Below, piece after piece: positions 12,426-39,500 of a stretch of DNA of 64,000 bases. The position numbers were made by a program, and so were the translations under genes. The stretch spans positions 32,941,967 to 33,005,966 of the forward strand of contig CM120640.1 in assembly GCA_051362555.1 (NCBI GenBank). The letters run 5' to 3'. Under the pieces are notes generated by a model that saw only the letters and a list, made by a program, of their open reading frames with translations, had not been told where the DNA came from and searched no databases. The first letter of the stretch is position 1; every line of letters starts with the position of its first letter. The stretch comes from Lingula anatina. Lineage: Eukaryota; Animalia; Brachiopoda.

Positions 12426-13407
12426 TGTGTGACCTAAAAAGGTAAAATAAAACAAAGGTAAGAAGACCTGTACAAATATAAGGCTACTAAAGAAATAAAA
12501 AGAAATTTCTCTAAATAAACTTACAATTTTCTTAAACCAAACTTGTACCTCAATGTTTTTTCAGTGAACTTTTCCTTTTTTTTTCTCCTAGCACCTTTGG
12601 TCAGGATTAACCCAGACAGTATGACTCTAGTAAGTGGAACTGATACTTACACCTTTAACCAGACATCTTATAACTGATAACCTAACTTTCTACACTTATC
12701 ACAAACCTTTTTATACAAATAATTCATATTATTGACCTATGTACCTAACAGACCCAACCTCACAATATTTGATGACATAATGACAAATTTCTTGGAAATC
12801 TTGACACCTACTGTGTAAAATGAAAGTAAAAATAAATTAAATGGCAAAGGGCATAAAACAGGACTTGGGCATTCAAAATAGAATCAGTAAGTTTTCCAAG
12901 CTTCACTGTGGATTTTCTATTACTAAATGACAAAACTATTATCATGATAACATGTGAGACTATGTGAGACAGCATACAATGGTCAAAAAGAATATTGAAC
13001 AAAGAATAAACCTTTATAAATACAATTAGTTGTAACATTACACAATGGACACAATGGAAACATGACTCAAAGCATTCAATAACAAATGTTGATTTTCCTC
13101 CTACACTTTTATAGCATATGCATATTACTCAGTTCAACCCACATCTAAATCTCTACACTGATAAAAAAAAACATACATTGATAATTAATATTTCCTGTTA
13201 AGATAAATAATCAATCACTTTAAACTGCATTTCATTACTGGTTATAATGAGTATGAATCCCTGTCATATTTCAACATATAATAAATAGCAACTGACCTAA
13301 ATCACCTTTGTTTTGGGATGTTTCATTTTTTTTAACTACCTTATAGCACTGCATTTCAATATTTATACATTTATGGATCAACTTGTTTAATTTTAAACAC
13401 ATGATAT

Positions 13408-15370: not shown

Positions 15371-17776
15371 ATGGCACATTGGATGAAAAGGGCAGGCTCT
15401 ATGTAAGTTTGTATATTTTATAGAATGTGATACACAGGATAAAACCATGTAGGTGCAGCAGCAATCGGTAGCACTGCATCACACTTGCTTATTATGTCAG
15501 TAAGATGCACGTAACTGTGAGTGTTACAATTATATATCTTGATTACTCCCGAATCCTACCAAGATTAGTTAGTTACATTAAGTCTAGCTGTTCCTAACAA
15601 CTATTTATAAGATTGGATACACGTATATTGCAAATGCAATAATATCCATGACATGTTCAGGGTTGGCAGAAGGACTTGTGTTAAGGTAAATGCCCCGATA
15701 GAAAGTTATGTTTGGGTCGCTTCTTCATGTAATATCGATTGCCCCCTGTTTGACATCTACTGGGGCGCATCTACTGTACTGGTAAAAAGCACACTTCAGT
15801 GATCCATACAGAGTGCAACATACAGGTCAAAGCAACTAATTTGAAATATTGACCCTGAGTGTCTTTGGCAATGTTTTCTCATACAGGCATGACATGGCAA
15901 TAAACACATGATGGTAAACATAAATAATAAGTCGTTTCCAGGGGACTTTTTTATTCAAAATTGTATTCATTGTTATGATTCCTGTTCATGCTTCTCATTT
16001 CAGACTTCCATTTTGGAAAAGAACAATTCCGCCATTCCCTGTCTACTGGAAAGGAGATCCGAAGAACAGAGTATTTCTACCTACCTTTTGGATGAAATTA
16101 GTAAAACCAGACCGTGAAATGCCCCCAGACTATTTGCAATTTATAGTACATAAACAGTAGGTTTCACAGTAGCTTTTGAATCCCATATGATGGAATATGG
16201 GATAAAATGTGTTTATGTGATGGTCAGCATTAAAATTCAGGCATAGCTGAAATCTGCCAAGTTTGATTAACGTAAGGGATTTTGTTTAAATGAGAAAACT
16301 TTGTATTAAGCAAAGAACTTAATTTTTACCCTGGCATGTAATAAATTTTCATTTGGTTCTAAAGTTGTTTAAGACTGTTCATTTGGACTCTCTTCTGGGC
16401 TAATTTTATTGTACCACCAGCGTAGGCGCTGGCAGTACACATGGTTTTAGTCCTGTTCTGCCGGCTCCGCCGCCATGTCACCGTTACTGCTTCTCCTCCT
16501 AGATTACAAGGGCCTGGGTACCCATCTCTTCGATTTAGGTCACCTATAATCTTAACTCGTTCCACTTAAAATTTGGGCTTCGTCGGTGCTGGGGTCTAGG
16601 TGTGGCACTCATTGCAATGCACCTTTGTCCAAAATTGGCAAAATTAAATGCTAATTATCTACCATACCAAAGGAATTAAGGGAAAAATTTCTACAGACGG
16701 CTGACCGGAAGGCATATGTGGAGATTTCAAGTATGCCCTTGGATTTGACCTTTGACCTTTATTTCAAGGTCAAACTGACCAAAATTTTCAAAAAAACAAT
16801 TTTTTATGGAAAATTCATTCATTTGCGCTGATATTCAGATACTACATAGACCTAACCAATAATATTATTGTCAGGTCATCTTTCCTCTCTGTGAGGTTGG
16901 GGTCAATCAGTGCATTTTCACAGGAGTAGCGGCCATAAGTTACCGAAACTGAAAACTCTCTAATTCAGGAAAAGCATGTCAAGCCCAACACTGAGGTGGT
17001 CTCCGTTTTTTGTGTTCCATACGGTTTATGAGTTATGCTGTATCAAAAAGTACATTGTGGTGGTGAAAGTTAAATGTGCAATACGGTAATATGCATAAAA
17101 TTTTGAACATATAGAAAAGATAACATAAGGCTTGGCAAGGCAGACAACTTCTGGTCAAAAATGACATTTTTTCATGAAATTTGAACATCTGATCACCTCC
17201 CATTTCAAGAATCTCAAACAAAATGATCCTTCTTTATTTGAATTAATTTATTCTGTAGGAATTTTATGGCACATTATTGTAACTCCAAAATTGTAACATT
17301 TAGTCCCTTATATCTCCAAAACTGGCAGAGATAGGTCCATAGTTACTATTGAAGTTAAATGCTAAGTCATACACTGGTTATCTAACTGTGACCTTGAAAT
17401 TGACCTTTGACCTACTTTTCATGATGAACTGCACTTTGCATGTTTTCTGGCCTTTAAATCTGCAAAATTGGCAAAGAAATGCCCATGGTTACTATAGAAC
17501 TTGAATAGGAAGTCATATACTGTGACATTGAAAATGACCTTTGACCTACTTTTTCACCATGAACTGAACTTTGCATATTTTCTTGCCCCTCATATCTTCA
17601 AAACCAGCTGAGATATGCCGAGTTGCCCCTAGGTTTTCTCTTTGTGAGCATATATGCAACACTGACAACACATTTCAAGAAAAACCAATAGGCCTTTTGT
17701 CTAGAAAATCACATGAGTGATCAATGTTTAGAAAATACAGGTCAATTTGAAAATCTGCTTCATTGTACCATTTAAA

Positions 17777-17814
<38 letters not shown>

Positions 17815-19633
17815 ACATTTTTCTGCAAATTTTTAGAACTGTTGTTGATTGTATTTTATAGAGCTTGTCAAGCACAAGACTGGTGGTGGTGTCCCTTTTT
17901 TGGGGGGTCAATATGAATGTGCTTACTCCAACTGGTGGTACAACATCCGGAGGCAGTATGGCCTCTCTGATCCTCTAGTTTCTGTCTGGATTTCAGACTT
18001 GACTGTGACATTTTCATAACATGAAGAAATGACCACACTTGACCATCCTGTTGCAAATTAACAAATGACTCGAGTATGTTCAAAGTGTAAGCACTTTCAC
18101 TAAAATTGTTTGACAGTCGTAAGGTTTATCTAGGAATATGATTGAACTTTTGAATGGCCTTTCTTTTCTAGAATGAGCACCCATGATGTGAAAAATTACT
18201 TGGAAAAGATATATGAGGTACCAGTTCTTAGGGTCAGAACAGAAATAAGAAGAGGTATGTGTGATATATATAAACCGAACTTTAAAAAAAAAACTTGCTT
18301 AAGTGTCTGTATAGTGTCTGGAGATAAAAAATTTAGTCATTTCAAATGTCACTGTTCAATAATATATAAGTGATTTGACTTCTCATTTACCAGATGATTG
18401 TGATATATGAACCATTTCATATTTCTATATTTAAGGTATACCATTTACTAAGGAAATGTGGCTTAAATATGTTCGGAATCCAGGTTATCCAATTCATCAG
18501 CGGTTTCCACGCGATGCTGAGCGAGAAATGTCAGGGGTTATCAACTTTACAGATGAATTTAAAGTAGCCTATGTGCAAGTGGTAAGAACTTAATTTGAGC
18601 ATTTGTATGCTATTTGCTTTTATTGATGTAAATTGAGTATTATGCATGTGTAAGTTGTGAATATTGGAAATATTTATTTTTGAAGTTGATTATTAGTACC
18701 ACTAGCGTGTACGCTGGCAGTACTTATGGTTTTAGTACCGATCCATCTCAGCTCTGCCGCATGGGATACAAATCTCCTTTACTGCTTCTCCTCCTAGACC
18801 ACAAGGACCTGTGTCCCCATCTCTTGGATTTAGGTCACATATGATTTCAACTTGAACCCTCTGTTTTTTTGTCTTAGTCAGTGCATTGGACTGACCGTGA
18901 TGCTCGTTGAAATGCACCCTTGTCAAAAATTTTGAAAATTCAATGCTAAATATCTCCCAAGCCAAAGGAAACATGGGAAAAATTGTTATAGAAGTCTAAC
19001 TGAAAGTCATATGTGGAGATTACAAATATGCCCCTGGATTTGACTTTTGACCTCTGTTTCAAGGTCAAACTGGCCAAAATTTTCTAAAAATGGGAATTTT
19101 CGGCCAAAAAATGTTTGTGCCAATTCTCAGAAATTACACAGACCTTAGCTCTCATATTATAGTGAAAGGTTACAATTAGGGACTCCTTTCATCTTTGGGA
19201 GTTTGGGGTCAATCGGTGCATTTTCAAGGGAGAAGGAGCCATGAGATACCAAAACAGAAAACTCTCTCTTATTCTAGAACCGTAAATGCTAGAGGCCTTT
19301 TGTTTTTTGTTTTGTAGAGCTTGTCAAGCGCAATACTTTTTTTTTTTTTTTTTGTCTTAACTGCACCATGTCTCTGTATATAAAATATTTATTGTAATTC
19401 TTATATTTTCTTGCAACTTCACAAATGTTTCAATTTATTTATATATAATCTGGTAATTGTATTATTTGGTTCATTTGCAGCCTGAGGAAGTGAAATTTAC
19501 TTGGCCGGATATTTTTAAAGAAAATAAACCACTTATGGAAAAGGCTTTGGAAGAAAGGAAGAAATTTTCAAAAGAACAAAAGCGTTTGGAAAAATCCAAA
19601 GGCAGTAAAGACTTGCCAGCATGGTTTAGGTGA
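15371..19633 (+). CDS. MRPL23: Mitochondrial ribosomal protein L23 (uL23m)
   Basis: Exons 15371-15402, 16004-16156, 18172-18254, 18436-18581, 19481-19633 are in frame. Motifs PVYWKGDPKNRVFLPTFWMKLV, MSTHDVKNYLEKIYEVPVLRVRT, DEFKVAYVQ, FTWPDIF and LPAWFR* parallel MRPL23. Confidence 0.93.
16406..17978 (+). mobile_element. Helitron/Helentron-like element, copy 2 (interrupted), MRPL23 intron 2
   Basis: Starts TTATTGTACCACCAGCGTAGGCGCTGGCAGTAC and shares TTGACCTTTGACC blocks and the 16976-17053 block with copy 1. Ends with hairpin GAGGCAGTATGGCCTC + TCTGATCCT-CTAG|T. Confidence 0.65.
18690..19335 (+). mobile_element. Helitron/Helentron-like element, copy 3 (3'-truncated), MRPL23 intron 4
   Basis: 5' end TTATTAGTACCACTAGCGTGTACGCTGGCAGTAC; colinear reverse-complement similarity to ~6180-6875. 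Confidence 0.7.
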
Positions 19634-21352: not shown

Positions 21353-24300
21353 TCATGTGGAATGTATCACCCAAAATTTCAGTTGTCTATCAACCCCGGC
21401 CACCAGTATCGGCATTCTAAAATGCCACGACAAACCATAGGAAACTGGACAGGTCACATTTAATAGCACCTGTAAAATAAATATCCCCTATTATGAATAA
21501 AGAAAGAGAAACCCTAGGAGAACATCTGATACAATGTCTAAAGTATCTGAAAATATTTTCTCCATTAACCATCATCTTTTCATTGCACTTAAAGAAATTT
21601 GACAGAAAATGCATATTCTCATTAGATGCTGGTTGGCCTGTGAACGATTCCAAGTGAGAATCATTGACAGATCAACCAACATGACGACCTGTGGATGTTC
21701 AGCCTGATGATGCTCTTGTGACAAGACCTCTTTCAAATATAATTCATGCTCCAAAGTAAGTGATAATCATCATTAAGACATTACTTAAATAAATGTTCAA
21801 TTAACAAATTAAAAACAGTAATTTTCTTTGAGCTCTTGCATTGAAGTTAATCTATCAACTTACCTGGTTGAACTTTGTATTTAATACTTTGATTTGCCCT
21901 TGTGGTGCTCCAACTGTTGCTACAATGTTTGGATTGCTTTTACACCATAGTGCTTGTTTGCCTCCCTCACTGAAAATGGGTTTCTTTTCAACAGGAAGGC
22001 TGGAAAGCAAACACTAAACATTTTTACATGTGAACTGTTTAGTTTTCAAACCATTGCTTCCAGTGTTGTCAAATATCACAACTCCTATATAACATTGATA
22101 TGAGGAACTTTACCTTGATCTCGATGTATCGAAAATAAGAAGGTCCCCTGCTCCCATCACGGCCACTTTGAGAGCATCCCCCAGGCACCAGTCCGCAGAC
22201 CTCAGAGGTTTACTTGTGCAGTCTAATGATAAAAGAGGCTGCTGGCTTAGTAAGTTGTAGAAACGTATGGTGCCATTCTTTTCTCCCACCATTATCTGAA
22301 AATGAAATCCAGGGTACTTATTTTGAATATTTCTTTACAATAATATTTACATGGTAAAAAAAGAAAAATTCCCAAGTTTTATACTAATAGCCAATTATTT
22401 TTATAAAACAGTAACTTAATGACAGCTTATTGAAAACATTTGGAACAATCCATTTTTCTAAAATCAAAAATCAAGTATTAAACATGATGCATGTATATTT
22501 CCATTTACAACTCTAATACCACTTCTCGTAACAGTGCATACTTTCAAAGAGTCCATTGGATGCCACTTAATACTCATTCCCGCTGAACCAAGAGGGAAAG
22601 AAGCCTTCTGTACCCCGCTCAAGTCCCATACTCTACAAGTGTGGTCATCACTAACACTGGCCAACTGGTCACCCTTCTCTGGCTCAAATACAACATCATT
22701 CACATAGTCTGTGTGTCCTTCCAGTAGCTGAATATAAAAAATTATCACATGAAAATGACACAAAAAAGATTATGGAAGAGAGACTGACTACAAATTTTAA
22801 AAAAATAATAACAATAATGCATCCATGTATACCTGATAGTGACTTTCCTCTTCTGCTTAAAGCTCCACCAAAATATGACACACTTCTTGATTTAAAGAAA
22901 AAAACTGTGCCAAGGAAATTCAAGAAAACACGAAATAAGAATATTGCTTTTATATCACAACGTAAAGGTACTGCACGTAGAGCTGTTTAGAATACCTGTA
23001 CAGCATCTTCATTTTTTAGGTCAGACTTGAAAAGACGCAATATCCTGTCCCCTCCTGCTGTCACCAACCTACAACAAAGTAGGACAAAATAGAACAACTT
23101 TTCCTTTGCGCTCAGAGGCAGAATATCTTAAATAAAGTGTGAATCTGGTTTGCTTTTCTGTGATGCATACTAGTAACTCTTTGCTCATAAGGCCACACTT
23201 TTTTATTTTTATGGATGACATCCTGCGCGCGCACCGATTTTCGCCCGTTCTCCAAATAAAAAAAAAAAAAAAATCCCCCCCCCAGCCCCAACGAAGTCGG
23301 TTGTCGCAAACGTTGTCATTGAATTTGCCAGGAAATAACCTTTCTGCGCATGCGTATTATCGCCACGTGGAAATGCGGCCGCTTTGCCGTCAAATTCATC
23401 TCTAGGATTACTTTCAAATTACACAGCAATAAAAGTCATAAAGATAACGGGCGCCGTCGTTTTGGATTGGTATGCCATGATATTGGGCATGGAGATATCA
23501 CCTTTGTACAATTGTGCGAAAGGCTGGCGGCGGCCAGCAATTATCGCCCGAAAAATTTCTGTGACATTCTGTACAAAGTAGCACATTAATACCAGGTTTT
23601 CTGTAGCGAAAAAAGGGTCGACAAGGGCGTCGAGGTATTCGGTGGGCTGAAGGTCGGACAGGCCACCTGACAGTTTGGTTGCTTCGTGTGAGTTGAAGTA
23701 GACAAAATGGCATCGTCCGAAATGACCTTTAATAGATTTGGTAGTATTAAGCATATCTTTGCATCATTTTTTAAACATTTCTACGAAGTATTCACAATGC
23801 TTTAATATTTTGAGAGCATGGATAAAGACATATTGTTAGTTTGATACGTGTTTCTGTGGTAAAATTTGTTTCCAGCTGTGTACTGACAGCATTCCTTTAC
23901 TTAAGCAGTATTTTTTTTTTTTGGACTGTTTTTTTTTTTTTTTCGCCCTCTCGCACCGATTTTGGGGTACCCAGAGGATATCATCCATAAAAATAAAAAA
24001 GTGTGGCCTAAATAGAGTGCAGATCATACAACTGAGAAATGGCAAATAAACGAAAATATCTGTAACACTTAAAGCAGTGTATGCTGTGTTTACAATTTAT
24101 TGCACTTAAATAATTATTTAATACAAACATATCAGCCACACTGACTATTAATACCTCAAAATTCTGGGAATAATCGCTAGTGCTGTCTGTGGACTCCACG
24201 CTATTGCTGTTACTCTTGGCCCATGATGAAAATCTCTCAACTGCTCAAATTGCAACCCATCCACCTCTTTATCTTCTTCCTAAATAATAAATAATACAGA

Positions 24301-24658
24301 TGCAGTTGTTAAAATATAGCATATTAGTCTTATTTAAACTGCGTCACCAGAATGCTAAAATGGAATCCAAACACATACATGACTCCCAGGAGTTTCTGAC
24401 TCAATATTAGTTTAACGAAATCAAATAAATTTAGCACTGGGAAAACAAAGGGAAATACACATACTGCAGTAGGTTGCTGTCCACAATAAGACCGACTGGT
24501 GGAGGACTAACCTGAAATCTGCAAGAACCCACGATGACTCTTGACGTCGTGCCTACAGCTAATAAGTTGCTTGACCATTCGAATGGAGAAAATTCTACCA
24601 CTTGGACAATGTCTTTAATTTCTAGAAAGTAATCGCTGCCCTGGTGATTCTCTATCAT
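21353..24658 (-). CDS. NUP37: Nucleoporin Nup37 (WD40 beta-propeller)
   Basis: Exons 24658-24512, 24279-24155, 23068-22996, 22727-22542, 22295-22114, 21999-21864, 21469-21353. Motifs VQVVEFSPFE, FHHGPRVTAIAWSPQT, LEGHTDYVNDVVFEP, SVSDDHTCRVW, EKNGTIRFY and GLSWH...LKFWV match NUP37. Confidence 0.95.
21626..21682 (-). ncRNA. Pre-miRNA-like hairpin in the last NUP37 intron (candidate)
   Basis: 57-nt stem-loop with 23 of 25 positions paired in the NUP37 sense orientation, including three G-U pairs. Confidence 0.4.
23191..24008. mobile_element. PIF/Harbinger-type MITE in NUP37 intron 2
   Basis: Perfect ~28-bp TIR GGCCACACTTTTTTATTTTTATGGATGA at both ends, a TAA target-site duplication on both flanks and a CpG-rich non-coding interior. 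Confidence 0.85.
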
Positions 24659-26012
24659 TGTTGATGCAAAAACTAAACACCGCGCTTGTTCTCACTTCCG
24701 GTTAATGAGCAAGGAAGAATTCCAAACTCCGATGTGCGAAACGAACCTAGCAGCCTAGGTCCTACTTGCTTTAAAACGTGTTAAAACAGCAAAAAGTGTC
24801 CGCGATCTAACTGTTTTATCAAATTTATTGTAGGCTCCTTGTGCCCTAGTACCTTAGTCTGATTTTATAGAGTTAGGTCAAAATTTTTCTACTAGACAAA
24901 ATACTGCAACGCTTCGCTAATTTTAATGTTTGCAGATGGGGGACTACGATTTTGCTTTAGAGAAGGGGAGGGGGCAAAGATAAAATTCTTACCTATCTTC
25001 TATCGGGCTTATATGTTATAAAACATTTAAAGCAGGCATTCAAACTGTAGGCCTAATGTATCTATGTAGGATCATGTATCGGATGTAGGGCGCAGAAAGG
25101 GCTGATAGGTTAGCAAAAAGACAGAAAAGGGGGAAAAACGCTTACCGCTTGCTTTTGACGCGATCGTTTCTTTCGCCATTGAACTGTACTTTTCATGACT
25201 TAAATCTGAGGTAGAGGAGGGAGGGGACCTCTGAAGCTACAGAGAAGTCAAGTGCCGGCTGTCGAGGCTTTGCCATCCCCAGACTAAATCACTGCAAATA
25301 TAATTGACATACTTCTGAAGTATAGCCGGATTTAAGATGAGAAGGGTGAAAAAACGACTGAAAAAATAATTAAGGAGGATTTTCTGCTATTATTTATTGG
25401 TGTTTTGGGGTTAAATTGGTCATTCCACTTTCTTAAGTAACCTACTTCCTCATCAGAGTAATTAGTCTACATTGTACATGGTTGTTAGTCTACTTTTCTC
25501 TGAACTGCGCATCCCAAACTGATCCTTTTGGCGACAATACAAGGCCATTAACCAAATAATCAGATCAATCAGAATAAAGAGCAGGTCTAGAATTTGGTTA
25601 ATGTCACGATGAGATATGTTCTGTCTTCGATTTCATTAATTTCAAGAAGCGACTGTGTTTAGGTCCAAGCTTCCGTGCGTCATCGGTTTAAAAACGAAAG
25701 TTATTTACTTTTTCGGCTTATTTTACAAGCCGGTTTCACCTCAGCCAGGAAATTGGTCTAACTTTTTTGAATAAAGAATGACTTGCTTCAATTGAAGATA
25801 ATCATTGGTTGTACACTTCACTTTAAAATAGTTTTATCTAAAATATAAGTCATGTCTTATGTATTACAAAACTTGCGCAATGTTTCATTTAATGAGCTAG
25901 GCCTTATTTATGTTGGTTAAAAGTTAACTAAATTTTGACCTTTGTAACGTTTTAAAACGGGTGCTATTTACTTGAAATAATTAGTTGCACTTGGACAGAG
26001 ATTTAAAAACGT

Positions 26013-26015
<3 letters not shown>

Positions 26016-26055
<40 letters not shown>

Positions 26056-26066
26056 CTCTCTCTCTC
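26016..26066. repeat. (CT)n microsatellite
   Basis: CT run. Another (CT)n lies at ~47187-47218 and (TAAA)n at ~33534-33581. Confidence 0.95.
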
Positions 26067-27404
26067 ACATGAGGCTATGTTTCTGACACGTGAAGAGTTG
26101 GTATTTTTACGGAGTTTCGGAGAGTCTTGTTTAAAGAGAAGTAGGCCTATCTTTTGAGTTTCAATTTTTCACATGTTGTCAGTAAGTTTAAATAAATAGA
26201 GAGCAAGTGTTTTAGAAATGACGTTAATTTTGTTAGCAATTTCATTCTAATATGATATGAAAGACGTTATTTATCATTTACAATCGTTGTCTTTTAATTG
26301 TTCAGTTGGATTGCCTGCTGGACACGCAAAGAAAGGGCCGTATCTTAATAAAATACCCTTTCAGAATTAAAATGTCTACCTTTTCCATTTGACATACACG
26401 GCACAATTATCGTTTTTCTTGTTATTCCATCCAATCACAAAGTATTTCTTCAACGATACTTTTGTGTCACCCTGTCACGCGGTTTTCACAGCGAAACGGG
26501 GAACTCCTTATATAAGCTAGGTCCATCATGCACTCAACAAGGAAAAAATCGCACGCCGCCACTACAAGATGAACATGAATTCGCATCTTCTATTTTTATT
26601 TCTTGCTGCCTTTTTTAAGGGGTCGGTTGAGATTTCGCCAGCTTATCCAGTTGGAGTAAACCGCCCACTGGTAAGTAAGAAAAAGACAAAAAGTGAAATT
26701 TTTGGTCTGCAAGTATCTATATTATATTTAAGCTTGTGTATTGCAATGGACCATTTTCAAAACTTTTTAAAAATTGGTTGTCGTTGTAGATAACCTCACC
26801 CTGAACTTTTTCATGTGTGCGTGAGATATTTTTTCAATAAGTGAATAATACCAAATTTCTTCCTTTGATATTTGATTGTACATATGTAATAAAATGAAAT
26901 ACAACTGAGATTTGAAAAGGAGAAAAGGAAGAAAAGAAAAAAAGAAATTAATTAAACATTGTGTATATATGCATGTGAGTTAGATTTTTTACAAATACAA
27001 AAAGTACTATGGCCATTATTACCCGTTTTTTTAAATTAAAAACTGGCAGTTATGAGTTTTTTTCTTCTTTACAATTTATACAAATTATTTGTGGACTAAA
27101 CGGTCTTTTGGGTATTCTTTTCTCACTGACTGCATAAACATGCTTGTTACCGTTTATGCTTGTTACCGTCTCTCTCTCTCTGCCTCTCTCTCTCTCACAT
27201 GAGGCTATGTTTCTGACACGTGAAGAAGTTGGAATTTTTACGGAGTTTCGGAGAGTCTTGTTTAAAGAGAAGTAGGCCTATCTTTTTAGTTTCAATTTTT
27301 CACATGTTGTCAGTAAGTTTAAATAAATAGAGAGCAAGTGTTTTAGAAATGACGTTAATTTTGTTAGCAATTTCATTCTAATATGATATGAAAGATGTTA
27401 TTTA
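26041..27404. repeat. ~233-bp near-identical direct duplication (26041-26273 and 27171-27404) bracketing exon 1 of the peptide gene
   Basis: Both copies start in a (CT)n tract and differ at about four positions. Confidence 0.9.
26509..26515 (+). promoter_or_regulatory. TATA box of the secreted peptide gene
   Basis: TATATAA ~55-60 nt upstream of ATG 26569; CCAAT at ~26431. Confidence 0.6.
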
Positions 27405-30067
27405 CATGTATTTAATATATATAGGCTACATGTATTTAATTATTGCATCTATTGGGACCTTTTATTTAATTGTAAAAGTCAATTAATTAATGAAATAAAT
27501 AAATAAATTGATTTATAAATATATAAATAGAAATACTAATAAATATATGAAAAAGTATTGCGTTCAAGCGTATCATTTTCACATCACATATTAAGGTTTG
27601 GTAATAATATGTCTCATGGTACATGTAACGACCAAGTTTGTCAATGTTATGAAAGCACAAGTAGAAATTTAAAAGTTAGCATCATTTTTACATTTACTTA
27701 TTTATTTAATTCCTTATTTTCTATTATGTATCCATTTATTCATTTTTGCAGTACAACAAAAATGTACGTACTGATATACTGAAGACTGCCAATTTATTTC
27801 GTAATATAAATAACAGAGTGACACCTGAAAACGGTGAGTAGCGATGGTCCAAAGTGCATAGACTATGCGTAAAACTTCGGCAACCCTGCATTCAAATTGT
27901 AAAAACATTTTATTTATTTTTTCTTTTCCAAAGTTTCACCTTAGTTTCCCAGAAGACGCCGGTGACAGACAGAGCATCTTGCGTTTCTTCGTCCCTGGCG
28001 ACGTTTTGAATTTCAAGGTGGGACAACCAAGGAATGAACGACATACGATTGTCTCTGAGCCGATGGTGAGAAGAAATAAAACAATAACAAAACGTGAGTC
28101 GCAACTTAGACAACTGTTTTGATTATGCATTGTATATTAATCATATTCACGAGACATTTAATAATAATCATTATTATTTTAACCCAAAGAGGCAACATTC
28201 AACCCAGGTTTGCAATTATAAGCAATAATAAATTAGTCAATAACAAATACAGGACAGGATTGAATTAAGTTTTTAATACTTATTATTAAGTTTTTTATAC
28301 TTAACTAGATACGTATCTATTTAAGTTTAAATAGATACATGTACTTAAATCTCCTCGAAACTACGTGCATTCCCACATTCAAAGTTCGTCATTTTTTTAG
28401 TGTATTTTCTGTAATAATGTCTGAAGAAACTATTACGGAAGGTAGCCATCCATGAATGTCCGCGTGGTCCGATAGCAAGCCCAGATTTCAGAATATTTGC
28501 AATAAACGCCGCTTTTGTGGTAAAATGAAATTTATCATATTTCTATGTGTTGTTTTCAATGTGTAAATTATGGTATGTTGAATCTCATATGAACAGTTGT
28601 TATCCCTTAAACATCCAAAATTGCAACATTAAGGTCCCGAAGACACATTCTGTTTGTATTAGCATTGGAAGTTATTAATATCTAAGATATGCGAGATACA
28701 AACGCGTAGAAATTAAGCTTCAAACAGTGTTAACAATGCGTTGTATAAATGTAAGTAACTTTTATAAAAGTCCATTTGAAATCTCCAAAACATGTAGTAG
28801 CACAATTTTACATGAAAACCTTCGGTCTAATTAGAAAAAGAGTGAAAGAAAGGTATCCATCCTCTAAGATTAAATTAACATTTTTTCTTGTTAAGAATGG
28901 TAATATAATTAATTAAGAGAAATGCAGTTTCTGGTCATCGTATTGTCCTTTTTTGGCACTAGTAATCTTTTAGCACAATCTACGGTACATGTGTCATGCA
29001 AAATAACTATATTACGTCTACCATAATGAAAAAGAATAAAAAGCATCTAATTAAAAAAGTTTTATTTTAAAATGCTTTTATGTAATCTGTATAGAATTAA
29101 CCGCGATGGGGTAGTGAAAAACAAGGGGGTGGCATGAGAATGATTTAATTGGTACACTCGCCAAATACGCTGTCGTGCAAATAACCTTATACATAAAAGT
29201 TATCATATTTTGGTGTATCTTTGGAAGAAAAATTTTGAACGAGATTTCATTTTATTTGACAGTTATTTGTAGAATACACATCTGAGACGTATGTCTTTTG
29301 ACAACGTACATATTTTGTGCAGGGCATATTCGTAGTATAGAGGCAAGACTTTGAGTTTACCACTTGAAGTCCCGGGATTAATATATATGCAAATAAGAAT
29401 TATAATAAAAATTGATTGAATAACTATATTCATCTCTTTCAGAAACTGCGAGGGTTTTTCCTTAAAAGGCGTCTTCAAATGGTTTTATACAAATAATTAC
29501 TTATAGCTTTACCTTCAAAAAAACATAGGTACAAAAATAACATAAAGTTTATCACTATGAATACAAAAAAGAGAGGCTTAAACGAAATTAAGTGCAATAT
29601 GTATTTAACAGCCTTTATGCTAACGTTTGCATAGAGAAAATGCAATGCTTTCTTAATTTAACCGTTTTCCAAATGTACACGTAAGCCTTGCATTACAAAT
29701 TGTGTTTCTAATTTACCAATCACACAGTCCAGTAGGCATATTGCAAGGAAATAAAATATGTTAATAAATTAACTGTTTTCCAATACAAACGTACTCTCTA
29801 CATTATGTAATATGCTTCCTATCAATTAATCACACATTCGAGTTCGTGGCATCAAGGGAGCACAACAGATAATATTCCTTAGTGGCATTGAGGCATTCCT
29901 CCTTACATATATCTACGATACCCGTTTGTTTGGTTGGGGGTGGGTGTGGTTATCTTTTTATTTTATTTTGAAAAATACTTAAAATCACTAAAAATATTTA
30001 TTTACTTTTCTTCACAGGGCGCTGTTTCGATGTCAAAGACATATGTTGTTGGTGGCAAATCTGTTAG
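26569..30067 (+). CDS. Secreted prepropeptide, 103 aa, with C-terminal 4-Cys peptide CFDVKDICCWWQIC (neuropeptide/toxin-like, family unassigned)
   Basis: Exons 26569-26670 (signal peptide; donor GTAAGT), 27934-28093 (pro-region; donor GTGAGT, phase 1) and 30018-30067 (acceptor TTTTCTTCACAG) total 312 nt. Splicing creates a KRR convertase site immediately before the Cys-rich peptide and the stop. Confidence 0.75.
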
Positions 30068-31726
30068 AAGGTGAAGCAGTTGAAGCATCGCCAGTGAAAC
30101 AAGCATAAATGACTATTTTTTTTTAATCTGTTTACCTACACAGTGTTTTATTTCCTGCCTGACATATACGAACCGCTGCCGTTAATCACTATGCTGCGCA
30201 CTTTGACTTCTGTGGAAAGCGTCCAAATAGAACTCAATTTGAAACGTTTTGGCCTTCGTTATCACGAATGCAAAAGTTCTTTAATGAGAATATAAACCTA
30301 CTACTTAAATACTTCCTGTTATTGTTGTTAGTCTGCACTATGAAATACGATTTTTTGGATCATAATGCCAAAATTACACGAATACTTTGAATACTTTAAT
30401 ATGCAGATATTAATTCTATTCTGCCTTAAAGATGTGCTATTGATTTATGTCCCTCTGACTTATATCCCATTATAAGCCTCAGTGTTAATTTTTTTCCGAG
30501 AAAAAAATAAAGATCGTCCAATAAATCTTGCAGTGTGGTCAAACTGAAGACTTGTTTAGCAGACTGCCTGGCAAATTTGAATGAATTATCGGTATTTATA
30601 GGTAAATTAAAGGTCTTTACCACTGGCGCACTATTATTTCATCGTCTCCATTAAAAGACGATGACGAGCGGTGTCTATGTGGTATCTTGCTGAATAGCTA
30701 AGCAACGATGTAATTTCCTTTGAAAAGATCATTAATAAATGTAAGTGCACTGTATGAAATTGTATGTGTAGCTTTTTCTATTTTATTCTAATTCTTTCGC
30801 ATGTATTTGGAGTCTTTTGTTTCTTCAGCGGCTACTAGTGTATAGTCTAACAAAGTGTACTTGTGGTGAGGTCATTAAATTTGATAAAAAGTTAACTAAT
30901 TTTGACCGTTTTTTATTTTGGTAGGCTAGGGGGTGGTGTTCTCAGGTATTTTTTTTATGTTGCTTTTAGATTCATTTACTGTTCACGGCGACAACCGAGC
31001 ATACACAAAATCAGAAAATCCACCCTATGATGGAAATTATGAAGTAGTAATATTACACTCTCATTGCGCATCAATTCCAAGCACGTATATAAATGACAAG
31101 TTCCCATGACAGTTTCAATACGTGTGAAAGAAAAGCAGAAGACTCTAAAATATCACTTGAAAGGTTTTTCTCTTATTATTACAAAGTTTCTATATGAATA
31201 TACAAGTATGGTAATTCTGCACCTTTCGTTCAACTAGCCAGTAGCTGAAAAACATGCATAGGTTTCAATGCACAGAGATAAAAGAAAAATAAAGTTGTGG
31301 CAAAATGTCTTTTCTAATATAATGAATGTCTAACTGGAATGTGCCTTATACGGATATTTCTTGATTAAAATAGCATTTCCACTCGATTGGACGGACGGAT
31401 ACATCACAGTAAAATCATTATGTTTTAAGATTATATTATAATGCTACATGTCATAAAAATAAGCATATGATATACAAAATGATATTGAACAAAAATTCTT
31501 CTTAAATCACAAAAATAATACATGTTAAAGATTAGTCTACAAACATGTAAATTTTAATATTGACAAGTTTAATGAATACATTCAAAAATTAAAAATGGCA
31601 AAATCTTATATAAATATGTGTTATTCTGTATAAATATAGTCTACATGCGTATATATGACTCTAGATTGGTGTATATAATTGTCCAAGAAATGATGTAAAA
31701 TATCCCCAGCTGTTCTTAATTCAGAT

Positions 31727-33532
31727 TCAGACGTCCTCATCCACTTCTTCACCTGCTTTCAGTTTTGCAATCACCTAAATTATAAAATAGTTATATTTAA
31801 ACTTCACTTTACTAACATTCATACATGTTCCAGCAAACATAATATATTACTCAATAATGATAATAACAATTTTGTGAAACTGACTTTATTTTAATTAAAA
31901 TCATGATTTTAAGCTGTCTTTACAAAAAGGTTAGTGTATGTCTTACCTGTTTAAGTCTATTAATCTCTTTGTTGTCTGCATTCTTTGAGGCTGAATTGGT
32001 TATCAGTTTCACTCGAGATGCATACCTATAAACACAGAATTTTTAAAGAATCATGTGATTGTGGCTGTGTTAAATCACATGTTAAATCACATGTTAAACA
32101 GAAAAACATAAATTCTGTAAAACTGATGGACTCGAAACACTTCAATGGATTGTATTATTCAAAGAAAAATGTAAGATATCTACTCACGTGAGAGAAATCA
32201 CCGTTTCATCAACATTGTAATCTGCCGGTGACACATTGACAAACATGAGCGTCTTTGCATTGCCCCCAAGGGAGTCCTGCATCAACATGGTCAGCTTGTT
32301 GTTACGGTAAGGGATGAAGGACTGCTCACTGGACAGGGCAGAAATCACGTCACCAAGTGCAGACAGAGATTTGTTGATAGAGTTGGCTTCCTGGAATGAC
32401 ATACAAATGTGAATTTAAAGAGGAAACATGATTGAAATAAAATAAACAAACAACCAGAAAATAATCAAACCCTAAAGGTTTTCAATATTCACATATTAAT
32501 TTTATTATTATTATTATGATAATAAGTTTATAGTGATTCAAACAATTCTAATTAACAATCCCCATATCTTCAATTTTTCATACCTTCAACTGCTCAGCAC
32601 TTGCATTGGTCTTTGCAACACGTTCACTGCCTGCCAAATCAACTAAGCTCAACTGAAATTTAAACAAAAAGTTGAAAAAGAATGTTAAACAGAAAATATC
32701 ATTCACACTATTCAAAACCCAATTATACAGTTTTTGTAATTTAAAAAAATCCTTCAATACTTCACCCAGAATATTCCACAGAACTCGTCAATTTAAATGA
32801 TCGTTAAAGAACTATTTTCATTAGTTCCATACACACCTTGCCCCTCGTCACTGTGCCAGATGTCCTGTTTGTACTTTCAATAATAACACCAACCACCAAA
32901 TGTGACCTGGAACTCTCTGCGTTCATGCCTAGAAGACAAATAAGTTGACTGTCATCATTATCTTTTAATGCTCTCTGTGTAAAATGCACCCTGAGTTTTA
33001 AAGGACACTTCTTACTCGCCTCTATTATCTACATGCCTCTGCCATATTCAATGTCCTCTAAAACTCAGGGTGGTTAGATGGGGCTAAATATGACAACCTG
33101 CACTGGAGAAAATCTGCACTTCATTTGTAATATGTAATTAATAAAATTATCTCACTGGCATTTTGTATCTCGTCTACACAAAAGCTTAGGTGCAGTAATT
33201 TATGACATATTCTTAAGAGTCAACATTTTGCACAATTTCAATGCATAAATTAGTTTTATCACAGACATCTTTTCCTTACTTGTGCTTGCAACGTGTCTGC
33301 TCTTGGAGCCTGCATCAAACAATGCCATAAGTTCTTTGGCATTGTGGGCATCTTTCACCTCTGCTCCCTGGACAAACACCATACCCTTCTTATCTTTCTT
33401 AATCTCCATCTTAACATCAGCCTCAGACTTCTTTCCAAACAGATCCAGAAGTTGGTCATTGTACAACTCCAACATATAAACTGACACTTTGAAGAGGAAC
33501 TTACTCCTGTAATAAACAATCCACAGAACTCG

Positions 33533-33579
<47 letters not shown>

Positions 33580-36500
33580 ATATAATAATTCAATGTGCTC
33601 AATTTACTACTAGATCTTTAACTAATAAACAAATTCAATGTCTGTACAAGTAGTTACAATGAATGAAATTGTGATGTACATAAATGAACTGCTGGGACTT
33701 CAGGTAATGACAGCAAAGCAAAATAAAATCAACCACAGACACACTTAGTCACAATATTTTCTGCTCGATTTATTTTGAACTCATAACAGGTAAATGTACT
33801 CTCATAACTTACTTGTTTTCCTCAAGTAGCTCAAATATCCTTTCAAATGCCCTTGGTGCTATGCCAGGGGACTTTTGTTCACTATCTCCAATCATGGTGT
33901 ATGTTTTCCCAGAGCCTGTCTGGCCATAAGCAAATATACACACATTGTAGCCATCTGCTGCAGACTGTACAAGATTCTGAAAATAAAGCAATGTAAATAG
34001 TTACATTATTATAAATAATATACAAAAATAACTGATTTAAATGTGCATGGTTGGTCTTACAAAAGGTGCTTTGGTCACAGTGATGACATTATTCGCCCGC
34101 TTAAATGAGTTTGAATGAAAATAAATGTGATCTTTAACCCATACGTTATACAGCTGATGATAATTCCCAGCACTGGTAGATCAGTTAACAGAGTGGATTT
34201 TTTCCCTTTTATCTAAAAAATGATACTCACTTTAACATCTGGGAATAGGAACAGGGTAGGTATTGTTGTTAAAAAAGAAAATAAAAGAGAAAGGGACTTT
34301 TCTGTTTTAAATATTTTAATATTTAAAAAAAACTGAAATGATCAAAAACTGATCCAAAGTTGAAAAATATAGTCATGCATGTCATACTAAATGACAACAA
34401 GGTCTAACCTCTTAATATCAAAGTGACATGAACTGGGAATTAACAGCTCTAAAGGGAACAACTTATCTCCCAAATCCTTAGAATTAGAGGGCCATCAACT
34501 TTTTATTTCCTAATGTACTTTTTGCATGGAAAGAGGATTGACACAAATCCAATTAACCAATAATGTCTAATTAAGCACATAAACACGAATACTGCAACAG
34601 AATGCAAACATGAAACATTGCTAAATCATCTTCAATTGCATCCCTGTATAATCCAGACAAATCCAAAATAAAACTTCTGGTTCTTCACTACAAGGAAGAG
34701 ATTTATAAAATATATCAACGTATTTCAAATGCATGTGCCCATTGGGACACCACAAAGAAGCACATTATTCCAGCTTTCTTTCCTCGCACATTATTCCACC
34801 TTGTTTTCCTCAATCTTACATGAGTGTCCTCAAAGACCTTTTCTTGGGAGTGCTCTGGCATAAAAATCTGGTCAAACTGGAATTCTTTCAATCCACGCTT
34901 GCTGTCAACCTGGACTGTATATTCATCTGGAGATTTCAACACCAAGACATTGCCCTGCAAAAGTAAAAGGTAATCAAGTCATTGCATGATGTACATGTTA
35001 GGTCTTATTAAGTTATTCATATTAAATTTTTTTGTCCTAAAAATATATAAAATCTGTTTTAAGTGGGTGTGAAACAAGAAAATCTTTATGAATATACGTA
35101 ATGTTTCTACCTAATAAAAAAGATAAAAGAAGATCAAAATAGTGATTTGTTCATTAAAAAAATAATAAATAAAAAATACCTTTACTTTTTAAAAAGTCAT
35201 GAAAACAATTCTTACCCTGTCTAATTCACTCTTGCTCATAGGCCTTGCTCTGGCATACACTCTAATCTTTCCTTTCATGTCTTCAACCATGTTGTAATAC
35301 TTCTTTCTAAGTACCTTTTAAAACAAAACCAAAAATGTGTTTATTCCATTTAAAAATTAAAGAGCATACAATAATGACCTATAATTTGAAGATTTTTATC
35401 CCAAATTTTATCCAGTCTTATCTCTGGCTATATTTTCATATTACATGTGCAAATAACAGAATATCAATAAAATCAAATGTGATTTTTAATTGCCTACCCT
35501 CTCACTGTTGAAATTTTCAGTCAATACATGGTTCTCCTCTTGCAATCTTTTCACTTCTTTTTCCAGCTCCTCCACCCTGGCCAAGGCCTTGATACCATCA
35601 CTGGCTGCCACGCCCAGCTGCTCCATCTCGGCCTGCAGCTTCTTGATTTCATTACTTTTGTTATCATTGTCCTATTTTAATAAATAAAAAAGATTCTCCA
35701 ATCAAAGTCATACTCATATGAAGCAGATGAAGTCATTATTGTAGTTTAAACTTCTCAATTTCTACACAGTTTGAAAGCTATTTGACATGTTTTAATTTCA
35801 TCAAACACTTTGGACTTTTCCATTCATTCTCAGACAGTGCCTAGTGAACTCTCTCAGTATGATGATAGGGAGAGACAGTAGAAGATCTCTAAGGAGAATA
35901 TCTCAAATGTAAAATAGCTTTCAAATTATGTGTATAAATTGAAAAGTTAAAACTATGAAAATGAACAAAGAATGCACAATGAACATAAATTCCAAAATTG
36001 TTTCTTAAAAGAGAATTATTATAATTCTAAAATATTAACCTGATATTTGTTTATAAATAGAGTGCACTACACAAAATTATCAATATACATATACAAACCT
36101 TCTTCAGCTGTTTAAGCTCCTCCTCTTGTGTCTTTAAATTCTCAGCCTGTTTTGCAGATTTCTGCTTTTCCATTTCCATTTTCTTTTCAAGTTCTTTCAA
36201 GATTTTCTCATGCTTCTGCTGTTTTGCTTTCTGCAAATTATGTGAATTGAAGATAGGCTAAAATTAGGTTCTTAGAGACAAGCTGTTTCAGCTATTTACT
36301 TACAATCCTTGAAATTCAGTCTTAAAATCCAATATCTGGATATTAAAATCCAACAATAATCCAATAAATTCTAATGCAAGGATACACTAAGTGCAGTGAT
36401 GTTAAAAATTTTCCAGGAAAATATCTTTATATGTCATACTATTATTTAAAAGAAAAATAATAACAAATAGACATTTTTTACTTACATCCTGTGCTGAATT

Positions 36501-39500
36501 GGCATCTGCTTTCACTTTCTTCATCTCTGCCTCCATTTGTTTCAGTTTGTTGTCTTTCTCAGCACTCTCCTTCTTCACTGCAGCATACTGCTCCTGCAGT
36601 TTCTTCAGCATTGCTTCTGACTTGCCATCTCCTGCCTTTCCCTGAGAAAATGCACAAATAACATATCCCTCAGATGTTACATTTTATGATTTTCCCAGTG
36701 TGAAGCACAAATGCACCAGTATATAAGGTTATTTGTTTTCTTGAACATATTTAATGTTTGGATATGTTATTAACATGATAAATGCATATTACATGGTTCA
36801 ATTAAAAATATGACAAATAAAATGTATTCGAATATTTTAAACAAGTTAGTATTAACCAGAGAATAAATTAAACTTACTCTTTCAGGTCTGCCAGCACCAG
36901 CACCAGCAGCACCAGCTGCGCCAGCTGCCTCAAGGGCACGTATCTTAAAAATAAATAAATAAATAAATAAATAATTAAATACCATTGGACTATGGTCCAA
37001 AGGTGTGATTATAAACTAGTTATTAATTACCCTACAAAAGTTATAAATTGTTATAGCCTTACAGCATCTATAGCAGGAAACTTGAAACAATGTATAATTG
37101 CACTTAGTCTATAAAAAGTTAATACTAGATTTTACCCATTAAAGGGAACCTTACAATAAAATAAGGATCGACAATACCTCAAAAAAACTTACCTTTTTCT
37201 GTAAAGCTGCAATTTTAGTCTTCTCTTCAGCAGCTCTTTTTTGCTCTTTGGCCTCAAACTGTTCTGAAAGCTTCTTTGTCTGAGCATCTTTTTCAGCCTT
37301 TATCTGTTTAAACTTGGCCTAGAATAATATGATAATTGTTGTAGATTCCAGGAGGATGGCAAGTGCATCAAATATGGCTAAAACTTAGTAACAGATTGTT
37401 GGCCTATCTATCTGAGATCTACAGTAGTTTTAATCAGTAGCAATATATTTCCACCATACCAGTTACATAATTTCTACCAGAGGTATTATCTACAGAATCC
37501 TTATATTAGTAGTGTCCCTTTTCATACCTTCTTCCAAATATTGAGATTTCTTCTGAAATTATCAGTGCACAAAATAATATCAAACCATACCTCTGACTGC
37601 TCAACTGCTGCTTTCTGTGATTCTAAACTTTTCTGTAAGTTACTTGCTTTCCCCTCAAGTTCTGCTACTTTATGCTTTGATGCTGTTGCCTCCTTGGCTT
37701 TGCCATCTCTTTCTTTCTCAAGTGCAGCCTAAAAGGAGTAAACCTCAATTAATTTGAGTCAATGTGAAAATTTTCTGGTATCTTCGTGAAGAAAAATTGT
37801 ACCTGAACATCATAAAAAAGGGAGCAACATATTACTATGGATGGGGGCTTTGTAACGTTCCTGGTGAATTTTTCAATGTACTTAAGAAATAAAGGATGTT
37901 CATGTTTATGACAGTACTCACTATTTTAGTCTTCAGTTTCTTAATTTCATTGGCTGTATTTATTGGTACATTTGCCAACTGCACCCTCTCCAGTTCATCA
38001 GCTCTAGTCTTGGATTCTGCCAGTGACTAGGAAAAAAATTAAAAGAAAAATTGGAATGGTGAAGTTGATTTCTTAAAATGACTGGTACTTAAAATTCTAA
38101 TCAATGATGTCCTTAATATCTATCTGATTTATGACCTGTTAGCTACATTTGGATAATGCGCTTTGTGTATTACATAAATTACTACATGTTGCTTGACTCC
38201 ACAAAACCAAATATATGTTCAACTACATGTATTTCACCTTTTCTTTTGCTTTGAGTTCTTCCTGTAGGGACTCTAAAGCCCCTTTCAGCTTCAAGTCTGA
38301 TTCTGATTTCTGAATCTCAGTTTCCTCCCTAAGATTTGCAATTTGTAGTTTCAGTGCCTCCAGTTCCTCTCTGGTGTTCTCATGTGCCGCTTGCTCCTCT
38401 CTCAGTGCAGCCTCAGCTTTGTCTAATTGGGCCTGCAACTCGGACATCTGGGCATTTTGGAGCTGAATATCACAAAATAATATAATTCTGTTAAAAAATT
38501 GCCTTTCTGATTTTTAAGGTTAGTTTTAATTTTAAGCAAATGCATACATTTGTTTATTTGTTAATATAAATGCTCTAAATTTGCACTGCTACTGAGCCTA
38601 AAATTGGTGTTTTTGGTGTAACTTCAAATTGTTACTACATGCACCCATTAACTGGCAAATTTTTGACACCCAATATGTAAATCCATTGTGTAGTAATAAT
38701 GTGCACAGTTTCCACTCCTGTACCTCAGCATCCACCTGTTCTGTATCAAGGTCAACCTCCACAGTATCTGTCTTCTGCATTGTTGTTACTGTAACTGCTG
38801 CTGGTTGGTCTACTGTCACTGTTGTTGGCAGGCCTGCTGTCACTGTGACGGCTGCTTTTGCAGCTGCCAACTCTTTTTCCAACTGCTGGATAGTTTCTGC
38901 CTTCTCCTTTAAAAAATTTCACCAGAAATAATGATAAAAGATGGTTATCTATTAGATGGAACATAAATTCAAGTCATACATATAATAGTATAGTAGATTG
39001 TTTGTTTGGTTGTTCTTTCTCATAAAAAATATTAATGAATATGGTCATGGACATGATATTAAAATGGTGGACATACCCATAGTCATATATGTTTCTTTTT
39101 TTTATGGCAAAAAGCATAAATTATTCAGTAAAACTTAAACTGCACATTTTAATTCAAATTGATTACAAGGAAGACTTGACTGTTACATTAAGTTCCAACT
39201 TACTTTGTCTTCCTCTTCCAGTGAAGAAACTTTTTCTTTCAGGGTGTCATTGTCAGATTCCAACTCAGATATTTTGTCTTCAAGCTCAGATATTTGCTGT
39301 TCCAGTTTCTCCAACTCTTCTTTTCCAACTCCTAAACAAAAAATAGAATGAATATAAAAAGAAAAGTAACAAATATAAATAACAGGAATTCACTTGGTTT
39401 TCAAAAAAAAAAAAAAAATTTATTTGTTACATTTTCGTCCTTAAATAACTTCTCCTAATCTTCAAATAAACTGCCCTCTAATCTTTTTACCCATAAAAAA

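What the first reader, a model, noticed from the sequence alone, without database searches (positions are those of the whole stretch)
26569..30067. Orphan disulfide-rich peptide precursor with conotoxin-like exon layout and a urotensin II-like ring
Seen only after splicing: a signal exon, a pro-region exon and a mature-peptide exon give ...ITKRR|CFDVKDICCWWQIC*. This is a 14-mer with a C-x6-CC-x4-C framework under a TATA promoter. Established: urotensin II/somatostatin-related peptides have a six-residue ring C-F/L-W-K-Y/V-C, and many conotoxin genes put signal, pro and toxin regions on separate exons. The terminal C-W-W-Q-I-C matches that ring size and Trp position but has Gln for Lys, and there is a second Cys pair. 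Inference: an undescribed bicyclic neuropeptide/hormone or defensive peptide family.
Basis: partly seen in the sequence, partly recalled or inferred. Interest (0 to 1): 0.85.

Follow-up and report, generated by a model that had tools for sequence, protein, structure and literature searches.

The report
Unnamed two-disulfide peptide gene in Lingula
A small gene of the lamp shell Lingula is transcribed and spliced onto an exon coding a 14-residue, four-cysteine peptide with no relative found; the peptide is predicted to be secreted and likely acts as a signalling hormone, possibly a distant cousin of somatostatin/urotensin-like peptides.

Summary
The window is from the brachiopod Lingula anatina: a neighbouring gene matches RefSeq XP_013381289 at 99%. 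A TATA box and three exons give a 103-residue precursor ending in KRR then CFDVKDICCWWQIC-stop (C-x6-CC-x4-C). Stranded RNA reads cover all three exons and show the decisive joint 28093-30018 (3 reads, 3 starts, in 1 of 8 runs); the rival donor 28065 was not listed. Expression is low and seen in one study's three runs only. The exon 1-2 joint is not shown, and a peptide-less isoform likely exists. No relative was found in protein, family, structure or supplement searches, which are weak for a 14-mer. Best reading: a secreted two-disulfide signalling peptide (0.5). Its intron phases (0, 1) and last ring (CWWQIC, against CIWKIC in Lingula's own SSRP-like peptide) fit the somatostatin/urotensin-like family. 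But the defining WK motif is absent, so it is not a member; descent from that family about 0.3. 'Conotoxin-like' layout is generic: O2/contryphan, CRP-I and CCWamide genes have phases 1 and 2. Processing, disulfide pairing and receptor are untested.

The parts
26509..26515 (+). TATA box (TATATAA), 60 bases before the ATG
   Evidence: sequence; no RNA cover upstream of about 26548 (inferred from bin depth)
26569..26670 (+). Exon 1 coding part: predicted signal peptide (cleavage likely after Ala25, inferred) and start of the pro-region; phase 0 donor
   Evidence: (hydropathy peak 3.2); low stranded RNA cover in X1 only
27752..27833 (+). Candidate extra exon (phase 0 in, phase 1 out, open frame). 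It gives open precursors of 124 aa (with acceptor 27952) or 77 aa (joined straight to exon 3)
   Evidence: only such exon in 7.5 kb of + strand; 0 in 22 kb of background; no RNA cover in X1-X3
27934..28093 (+). Exon 2: pro-region ending in the basic cleavage site, which the phase 1 intron splits; 5' edge uncertain
   Evidence: RNA depth 7 at 28006 in X1 and X3; the one listed difference T28006C is synonymous
28094..28250 (+). Likely alternative 3' end inside intron 2 (stop at 28120-28122, AATAAA at 28227), which would give a precursor without the cysteine peptide
   Evidence: reads past the donor in X1 (4 reads, 2 starts at 28107 and 28116); excess letters in bin 28056-28201 in X1-X3; zero depth from 28202; inferred
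30018..30067 (+). Exon 3 coding part: last Arg of the cleavage site, mature 14-mer CFDVKDICCWWQIC (30023-30064), stop TAG
   Evidence: joint 28093-30018 in RNA
30068..30540 (+). 3' UTR with AATAAA at 30506 and 30520 (one run has cover up to the bin 30538-30683)

Best explanation
This Lingula gene is transcribed and spliced onto the exon coding CFDVKDICCWWQIC, and its product is predicted to be a secreted precursor that a convertase would cut after KRR to release a 14-residue peptide, likely closed by two disulfides and likely acting as a low-abundance signalling hormone on a G-protein-coupled receptor. Shown: the gene, its transcription and the exon 2-3 splice. Inferred from sequence: signal peptide, cleavage at KRR, two disulfides (oxidised monoisotopic mass about 1756.69). 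Inferred by analogy: signalling role and receptor class. The most likely pairings are I-II/III-IV or I-III/II-IV; in the one C-CC-C conotoxin read about, the vicinal isomer was inactive. The best lead for its origin is duplication of an SSRP-like (somatostatin/urotensin-related) gene, with loss of the Lys and gain of a second cysteine pair (about 0.3).
For: Neuropeptide-type layout: signal, spacer, basic site, one C-terminal peptide followed directly by the stop. Low expression, about 2.2, 0.4 and 1.0 RPKM-like units in X1-X3, and no gene cover in 5 runs of two other studies, as expected of a cell-type-restricted transcript. No second copy in the 64 kb by blastn or motif, unlike expanded toxin or defence clusters. 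The peptide is acidic and hydrophobic (charge -1.3, pI 4.2), not a cationic antimicrobial. In X1 the coding part of exons 2-3 shows 1 listed difference (synonymous) in 210 nt, against 7 substitutions and 2 insertions in 178 nt of UTR (Fisher p = 0.007, or 0.026 for substitutions only). That points to purifying selection rather than a hypervariable mature region. Intron phases 0 and 1 with the ring on exon 3 match protostome SSRP-like genes (PMC9048919). The ring matches Lingula SSRP-like CIWKIC at 4 of 6 positions.
Against: No homologue found, so no conservation across species is shown. The joint to the peptide exon is listed in only 1 of 8 runs, and about as many X1 reads run into intron 2 (4) as splice (3). 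The tissue of the runs is unknown, so neural expression is not shown. The signal peptide is atypical (no basic n-region; Lys and Glu in the c-region) and no signal predictor was available. The WK motif, which every protostome SSRP-like peptide has, is absent, as is their Pro/Trp-rich C-terminal tail. The second intron lies in the cleavage site, not within the mature peptide as in SSRP-like genes. Given the peptide's own composition, the Trp and aliphatic match in the ring arises by chance in 6.7% of shuffles. The coding-versus-UTR test rests on one individual and on uneven depth.
Confidence: 0.5

Rival explanations
1. It is a defensive or toxin-like secreted peptide that acts outside the animal on ion channels, receptors or microbes.
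For: Small disulfide-rich peptides behind a pro-region and dibasic site are used this way in mussels (CRP-I, also very low expression) and cone snails. The C-CC-C order is known from conotoxin VxXXIVA, a nicotinic receptor antagonist. Orphan status fits a fast-evolving gene.
Against: Single copy in the window; net negative charge; no listed amino-acid change between the reference and the RNA allele while the UTR differs; intron phases differ from CRP-I and O2/contryphan. VxXXIVA is 40 residues, has much longer loops and no pro-region. Brachiopods have no venom apparatus (recalled).
Confidence: 0.2
2. The cysteine peptide is incidental: the gene is young, decaying, or mainly makes the peptide-less isoform that ends in intron 2.
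For: Very few reads (about 22, 4 and 9 in X1-X3). Reads continue into intron 2 and stop near an AATAAA at 28227. No protein database entry was found for exon 2 or the peptide. An unused-looking extra exon sits in intron 1.
Against: TATA box, hydrophobic leader, strong splice sites, a tribasic site exactly before Cys1, a stop exactly after Cys4 and an even number of cysteines all line up; the peptide-giving joint is in RNA; the coding part is more conserved than the UTR.
Confidence: 0.15
3. It is a cut-down member of the knottin-type CCWamide/agatoxin-like or CLCCY peptides that kept only the central C-x6-CC-x4-C part.
For: The spacing equals the middle of the CLCCY framework in Phoronis (C-x6-C-x6-CC-x4-C...). 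CCWamide genes have three exons with the last intron inside the basic cleavage site, as here. The 4 of 6 brachiopod CCWamide entries shown were from Hemithris and Novocrania, not Lingula.
Against: CCWamide introns are phase 1 and 2 (Lottia example; phase 2 conserved in all genes analysed), against 0 and 1 here. The family has eight cysteines and an amidated aromatic end; no further cysteines lie before the peptide or behind the stop. The loops share no residues.
Confidence: 0.07

Closest known systems
Protostome SSRP-like (somatostatin/urotensin II-related) peptides, incl. Lingula XP_013393589.1 and GDJY01003198.1, and consomatins (Koch et al. 2022, PMC9048919)
   Same: Precursor of similar size; single C-terminal peptide after a basic site; three exons with phase 0 then phase 1 introns, signal on exon 1 and loop on exon 3; four-residue loop with Trp second and an aliphatic residue fourth
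   Different: WQ in place of the defining WK; Trp in place of an aliphatic residue first in the loop; two extra cysteines; no Pro/Trp tail; second intron in the cleavage site rather than within the mature peptide; no evident pro-region likeness on comparison by eye
Allatostatin C (Lingula GDJY01002997.1, ring C-QVWIVS-C)
   Same: A six-residue loop, if Cys1 pairs with Cys2; C-terminal peptide; phase 0 intron in the pro-region
   Different: No shared loop residues of note; Lingula already has its AstC; spiralian AstC genes are described with a phase 0 intron only
CCWamide / agatoxin-like peptides and CLCCY (Thiel et al. 2021, PMC8557429)
   Same: Three exons, intron within the basic cleavage site, CC-x4-C spacing
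   Different: Eight cysteines and amidation against four and a free end; phases 1 and 2 against 0 and 1
alphaB-conotoxin VxXXIVA, C-CC-C framework (PMC3559828)
   Same: Order of the four cysteines
   Different: 40 residues, long loops, no pro-region, venom peptide; no sequence likeness
Mytilus CRP-I (PMC4558851)
   Same: Pre-pro-peptide with dibasic site, cysteine-rich last exon, very low expression
   Different: Six cysteines (C-C-CC-C-C), short conserved pro-region, phases 1 and 2, large hypervariable family

Membership tests
SSRP-like / urotensin II-related | WK motif inside the disulfide loop | tested here: not met
   loop reads W-W-Q-I; family rule in PMC9048919
SSRP-like / urotensin II-related | Four-residue loop between two cysteines | tested here: inconclusive
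   Cys3-x4-Cys4 spacing is present, but it is a ring only if III pairs with IV; pairing unknown
SSRP-like / urotensin II-related | Three exons, phase 0 then phase 1 introns, loop on exon 3 | tested here: met
   the exon 2-3 joint is shown in RNA, the exon 1-2 joint is not; this phase pair is common by chance (recalled)
SSRP-like / urotensin II-related | Mature peptide begins at the 3' end of exon 2 | tested here: not met
   the intron splits the first Arg of the final RR; the whole peptide is on exon 3
SSRP-like / urotensin II-related | Single C-terminal peptide copy after a basic site | tested here: met
SSRP-like / urotensin II-related | Activates an SSTL/SST/UT-type receptor | not testable with these tools
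   needs synthesis and a receptor assay
SSRP-like / urotensin II-related | Precursor clusters with SSRP-like precursors by sequence | not tested
   compared by eye only, from the supplement text; no computed alignment
CCWamide / agatoxin-like peptide | Eight conserved cysteines and an amidated aromatic C-terminus | tested here: not met
   four cysteines, no Gly before the stop; definition
CCWamide / agatoxin-like peptide | Phase 2 intron in the basic cleavage site | tested here: not met
   position fits, but the phase is 1
Allatostatin C | One six-residue loop, commonly with Asn or FxP | tested here: not met
   Cys1-x6-Cys2 spacing is present, without Asn or FxP and with a second pair
CRP-I / knottin | C-C-CC-C-C six-cysteine array | tested here: not met
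Conotoxin | Cone snail venom-gland peptide with a superfamily signal sequence | tested here: not met
   host is a brachiopod; no Pfam match for exon 1 or the peptide frame

The most novel reading that the evidence does not exclude
A third, strongly diverged offshoot of the somatostatin/urotensin-like genes in Lingula: the first with two disulfides and without the WK motif, joining an allatostatin C-sized six-residue ring to a urotensin-sized four-residue ring in one 14-mer that signals through its own orphan receptor, with an intronic poly(A) site that switches peptide output off.
Probability: 0.25. Interest if true: 0.72.

Novelty: new variant of a known kind. Interest (0 to 1): 0.5.

Why it matters
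Brachiopod peptide inventories were built by similarity and motif searches, and this expressed precursor was not found in the three lists searched. It adds a candidate ligand for orphan brachiopod receptors and a very small two-disulfide scaffold that is easy to synthesise in all three isomers. If it descends from SSRP-like genes, it would show that this family can drop its WK motif and gain a ring in an animal without venom. That bears on the debated relation of somatostatin, urotensin II and allatostatin C. If it does not, it is one more lineage-specific secreted peptide of modest general interest.

Tried and rejected
No whole genome was held, so paralogues outside the 64 kb could not be sought. 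No RNA holder was listed by the index; the nine runs came by species label, and 8 of 9 were laid (X6 was not), reading about 6-30% of each. No housekeeping gene was laid as a control, so the five blank runs are weak evidence of tissue restriction. Homologue search with exon 2 among proteins of 94-2000 aa: 2 candidates, none at E<=10; shorter proteins were not searched. phmmer of the 31-residue open frame that ends in the peptide (its first 16 codons are wholly or partly intronic) against 1.84 billion representatives: 1 hit, P0002, a repetitive unnamed ORF that matches residues 10-28 and does not map to the window by tblastn; rejected. This search would likely show an identical peptide but miss diverged relatives. 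Pfam: no family for exon 1, exon 2, the extra exon or the peptide frame. ESM Atlas: no usable hit for the peptide frame; Pelota_N clusters at 0.82-0.85 for exon 2 are within chance range and were rejected. PDB sequences: one match at E 3.2, chance. The single-sequence AlphaFold2 model was low confidence (pLDDT 61, pTM 0.24) and gave no Foldseek match, so it is uninformative. No complex prediction was run, as no receptor was at hand. Full-text search for four peptide motifs: 2 irrelevant papers. Supplement searches found no peptide or precursor motif in PMC8557429, PMC9048919, PMC8398477 or PMC6425005 (two files cut when stored, so incomplete). Donors 28065 and 28017 give cysteine-free frames and were not listed in RNA. 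The extra exon does not resemble exon 2 (135 of 1000 shuffles score as high). My first guess that the host was a bivalve was wrong. Four look-ups of earlier scan findings returned nothing. Prokaryote, phage and metagenome collections were not scanned, as they are not expected to hold brachiopod genes.

Full report
Host. The window is animal DNA of about 34% GC. The long exon at 11277-12422 (-) matches P0003 at 99%, named LOC106152312 / XP_013381289.1 of Lingula anatina, and five stretches of that protein map to the window. The host is therefore a brachiopod. Neighbours are Bcl-2-like exons, a WD40 gene and a kinesin gene. No whole genome was held.

The observation. Splice-site scoring and translation give exon 1 26569-26670, exon 2 27934-28093 and exon 3 30018-30067. 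The frame is 103 aa with introns of phase 0 and 1, the second splitting the first Arg of the final RR. The mature part CFDVKDICCWWQIC lies wholly on exon 3 and is followed at once by the stop. There is a TATA box at 26509 and AATAAA at 30506 and 30520. The exact framework occurs once in the window and 0 times in 100 simulations; a loose version occurs 4 times against 1.0 expected.

RNA. The index listed no RNA holder but offered nine runs by species label; eight were laid. In X1, reads of one orientation cover exons 1, 2, 3 and the UTR, and three reads with three starts join 28093 to 30018 at GT..AG. X2 and X3, of the same study, show exon 2 and a little exon 3 or UTR cover but no listed joint. 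X4, X5, X7, X8 and X9 show only repeat-derived cover, apart from traces in X9. Levels are about 2.2, 0.4 and 1.0 RPKM-like units. Three caveats apply. First, the exon 1 joint is not shown. Second, four X1 reads from two starts pass the donor into intron 2; X1-X3 all have more letters in bin 28056-28201 than the exon explains, and depth falls to zero before an AATAAA at 28227. That suggests a peptide-less isoform, though unspliced RNA is not excluded. Third, an 82-nt stretch at 27752-27833 has strong splice sites and fits two further open models, of 124 and 77 aa, but has no cover in X1-X3. In X1 the only listed coding difference is synonymous, against 7 substitutions and 2 insertions in the first 178 nt of UTR (p = 0.007; one individual, uneven depth).

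Relatives. None was found. Exon 2 had no hit among proteins of 94-2000 aa. The peptide frame gave one spurious repetitive hit among 1.84 billion representatives. Pfam, the ESM Atlas and PDB gave nothing usable. As an identical protein would likely have scored, the gene seems absent from the public protein sets searched (inference); diverged relatives of a 14-mer would be missed. The motifs were absent from the supplements of PMC8557429 (searches; it covers Lingula, 15 of 161 entries viewed), PMC9048919, PMC8398477 and PMC6425005 (two files cut), and from a full-text search. The claim 'not in print' rests on these and on literature searches. Subscription papers, such as a recalled 2018 study of Lingula immune genes, were not seen.

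How it likely works. The layout is that of a prohormone: a hydrophobic leader, a 61-residue spacer, KRR and one terminal peptide. Inferred steps are entry to the secretory path, convertase cleavage after KRR, and oxidation to two disulfides. The peptide is acidic and hydrophobic, single-copy in the window, rare in RNA and apparently conserved between alleles. This fits a signalling peptide better than a cationic antimicrobial or a hypervariable toxin. I give signalling 0.5, defence or toxin-like 0.2, incidental or decaying 0.15, and a cut-down CCWamide/CLCCY 0.07. The pairing is open: in conotoxin VxXXIVA, with the same cysteine order, the I-II/III-IV and I-III/II-IV isomers were active and the vicinal one was not (PMC3559828, passages). 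The predicted model was too poor to help.

Comparison with known families. PMC9048919 (passages, sections 10 and 11, supplement searches; figures not seen) describes protostome SSRP-like genes as three exons with phase 0 and 1 introns and a four-residue WK loop on exon 3, and lists two Lingula precursors with C-I-W-K-I-C and C-I-W-K-M-C. This gene shares the phases, the loop size (if III pairs with IV) and 4 of 6 ring positions. The four-exon model would have phases 0, 1, 1, like the pattern given there for urotensin genes. Against membership: no WK, no Pro/Trp tail, two extra cysteines, and the intron sits in the cleavage site. The ring match arises in 6.7% of shuffles of the peptide's own residues, and the phase pair is common (recalled). 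So it is not a member; descent is about 0.3. CCWamide/agatoxin-like genes (PMC8557429, passages, sections 5 and 9, supplement part 10) also have an intron in the cleavage site and CC-x4-C spacing, but eight cysteines and phases 1 and 2. Mussel CRP-I (PMC4558851, passages) and contryphan/O2 genes (bioRxiv 10.1101/2022.08.05.502922, passages; supplements not seen) also have phases 1 and 2, so 'conotoxin-like' holds only loosely, apart from consomatins, which derive from SSRP-like genes. None of the five peptide families in the passages of that preprint fits a 14-mer of this form. PMC8398477 (passages) and PMC13311285 (passages) added no match.

Verdict. A real, expressed, apparently unannotated pre-pro-peptide gene of Lingula with an unnamed four-cysteine 14-mer: a new variant of a known kind. 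The evidence for the gene is good, for its function circumstantial, and for a family absent. Interest 0.5.

Noticed in passing
window 400-12500: Several Bcl-2-like exons on both strands (weak Pfam Bcl-2 matches at 996-1142 + and 4579-4875 -). The second is the last exon of the 723-aa LOC106152312, which has no Pfam match as a whole; an Owenia relative exists.
   Followed up: partly
window 26039-26273 and 27169-27404: A 236-base direct repeat at 98.3% identity, next to a CT microsatellite, with one copy upstream of the promoter and one in intron 1; a recent insertion or local duplication.
   Followed up: no
window 28294-28611: Repeat element in intron 2 with a short inverted repeat (28294-28331); reads from other transcripts cover it at 90-95% identity in all eight runs. 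Possibly a miniature inverted-repeat element.
   Followed up: no
window 27752-27833: Candidate alternative exon with strong splice sites and compatible phases but no RNA cover in the three expressing runs.
   Followed up: partly
window 5413-6877, 16406-19337: A family of diverged repeats of 0.2-0.6 kb in direct and inverted orientation, 72-90% alike.
   Followed up: no
window 22464-24691 (-): WD40 gene, recalled as Nup37-like; a short motif appears in opposite orientations near 23200 and 23950 in the ORF list.
   Followed up: no
window 33200-47000 (-): Multi-exon kinesin gene with a motor-domain exon at 33290-33520 and coiled-coil-like exons; TPR-containing exons lie further on at about 57900-58200.
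   Followed up: no
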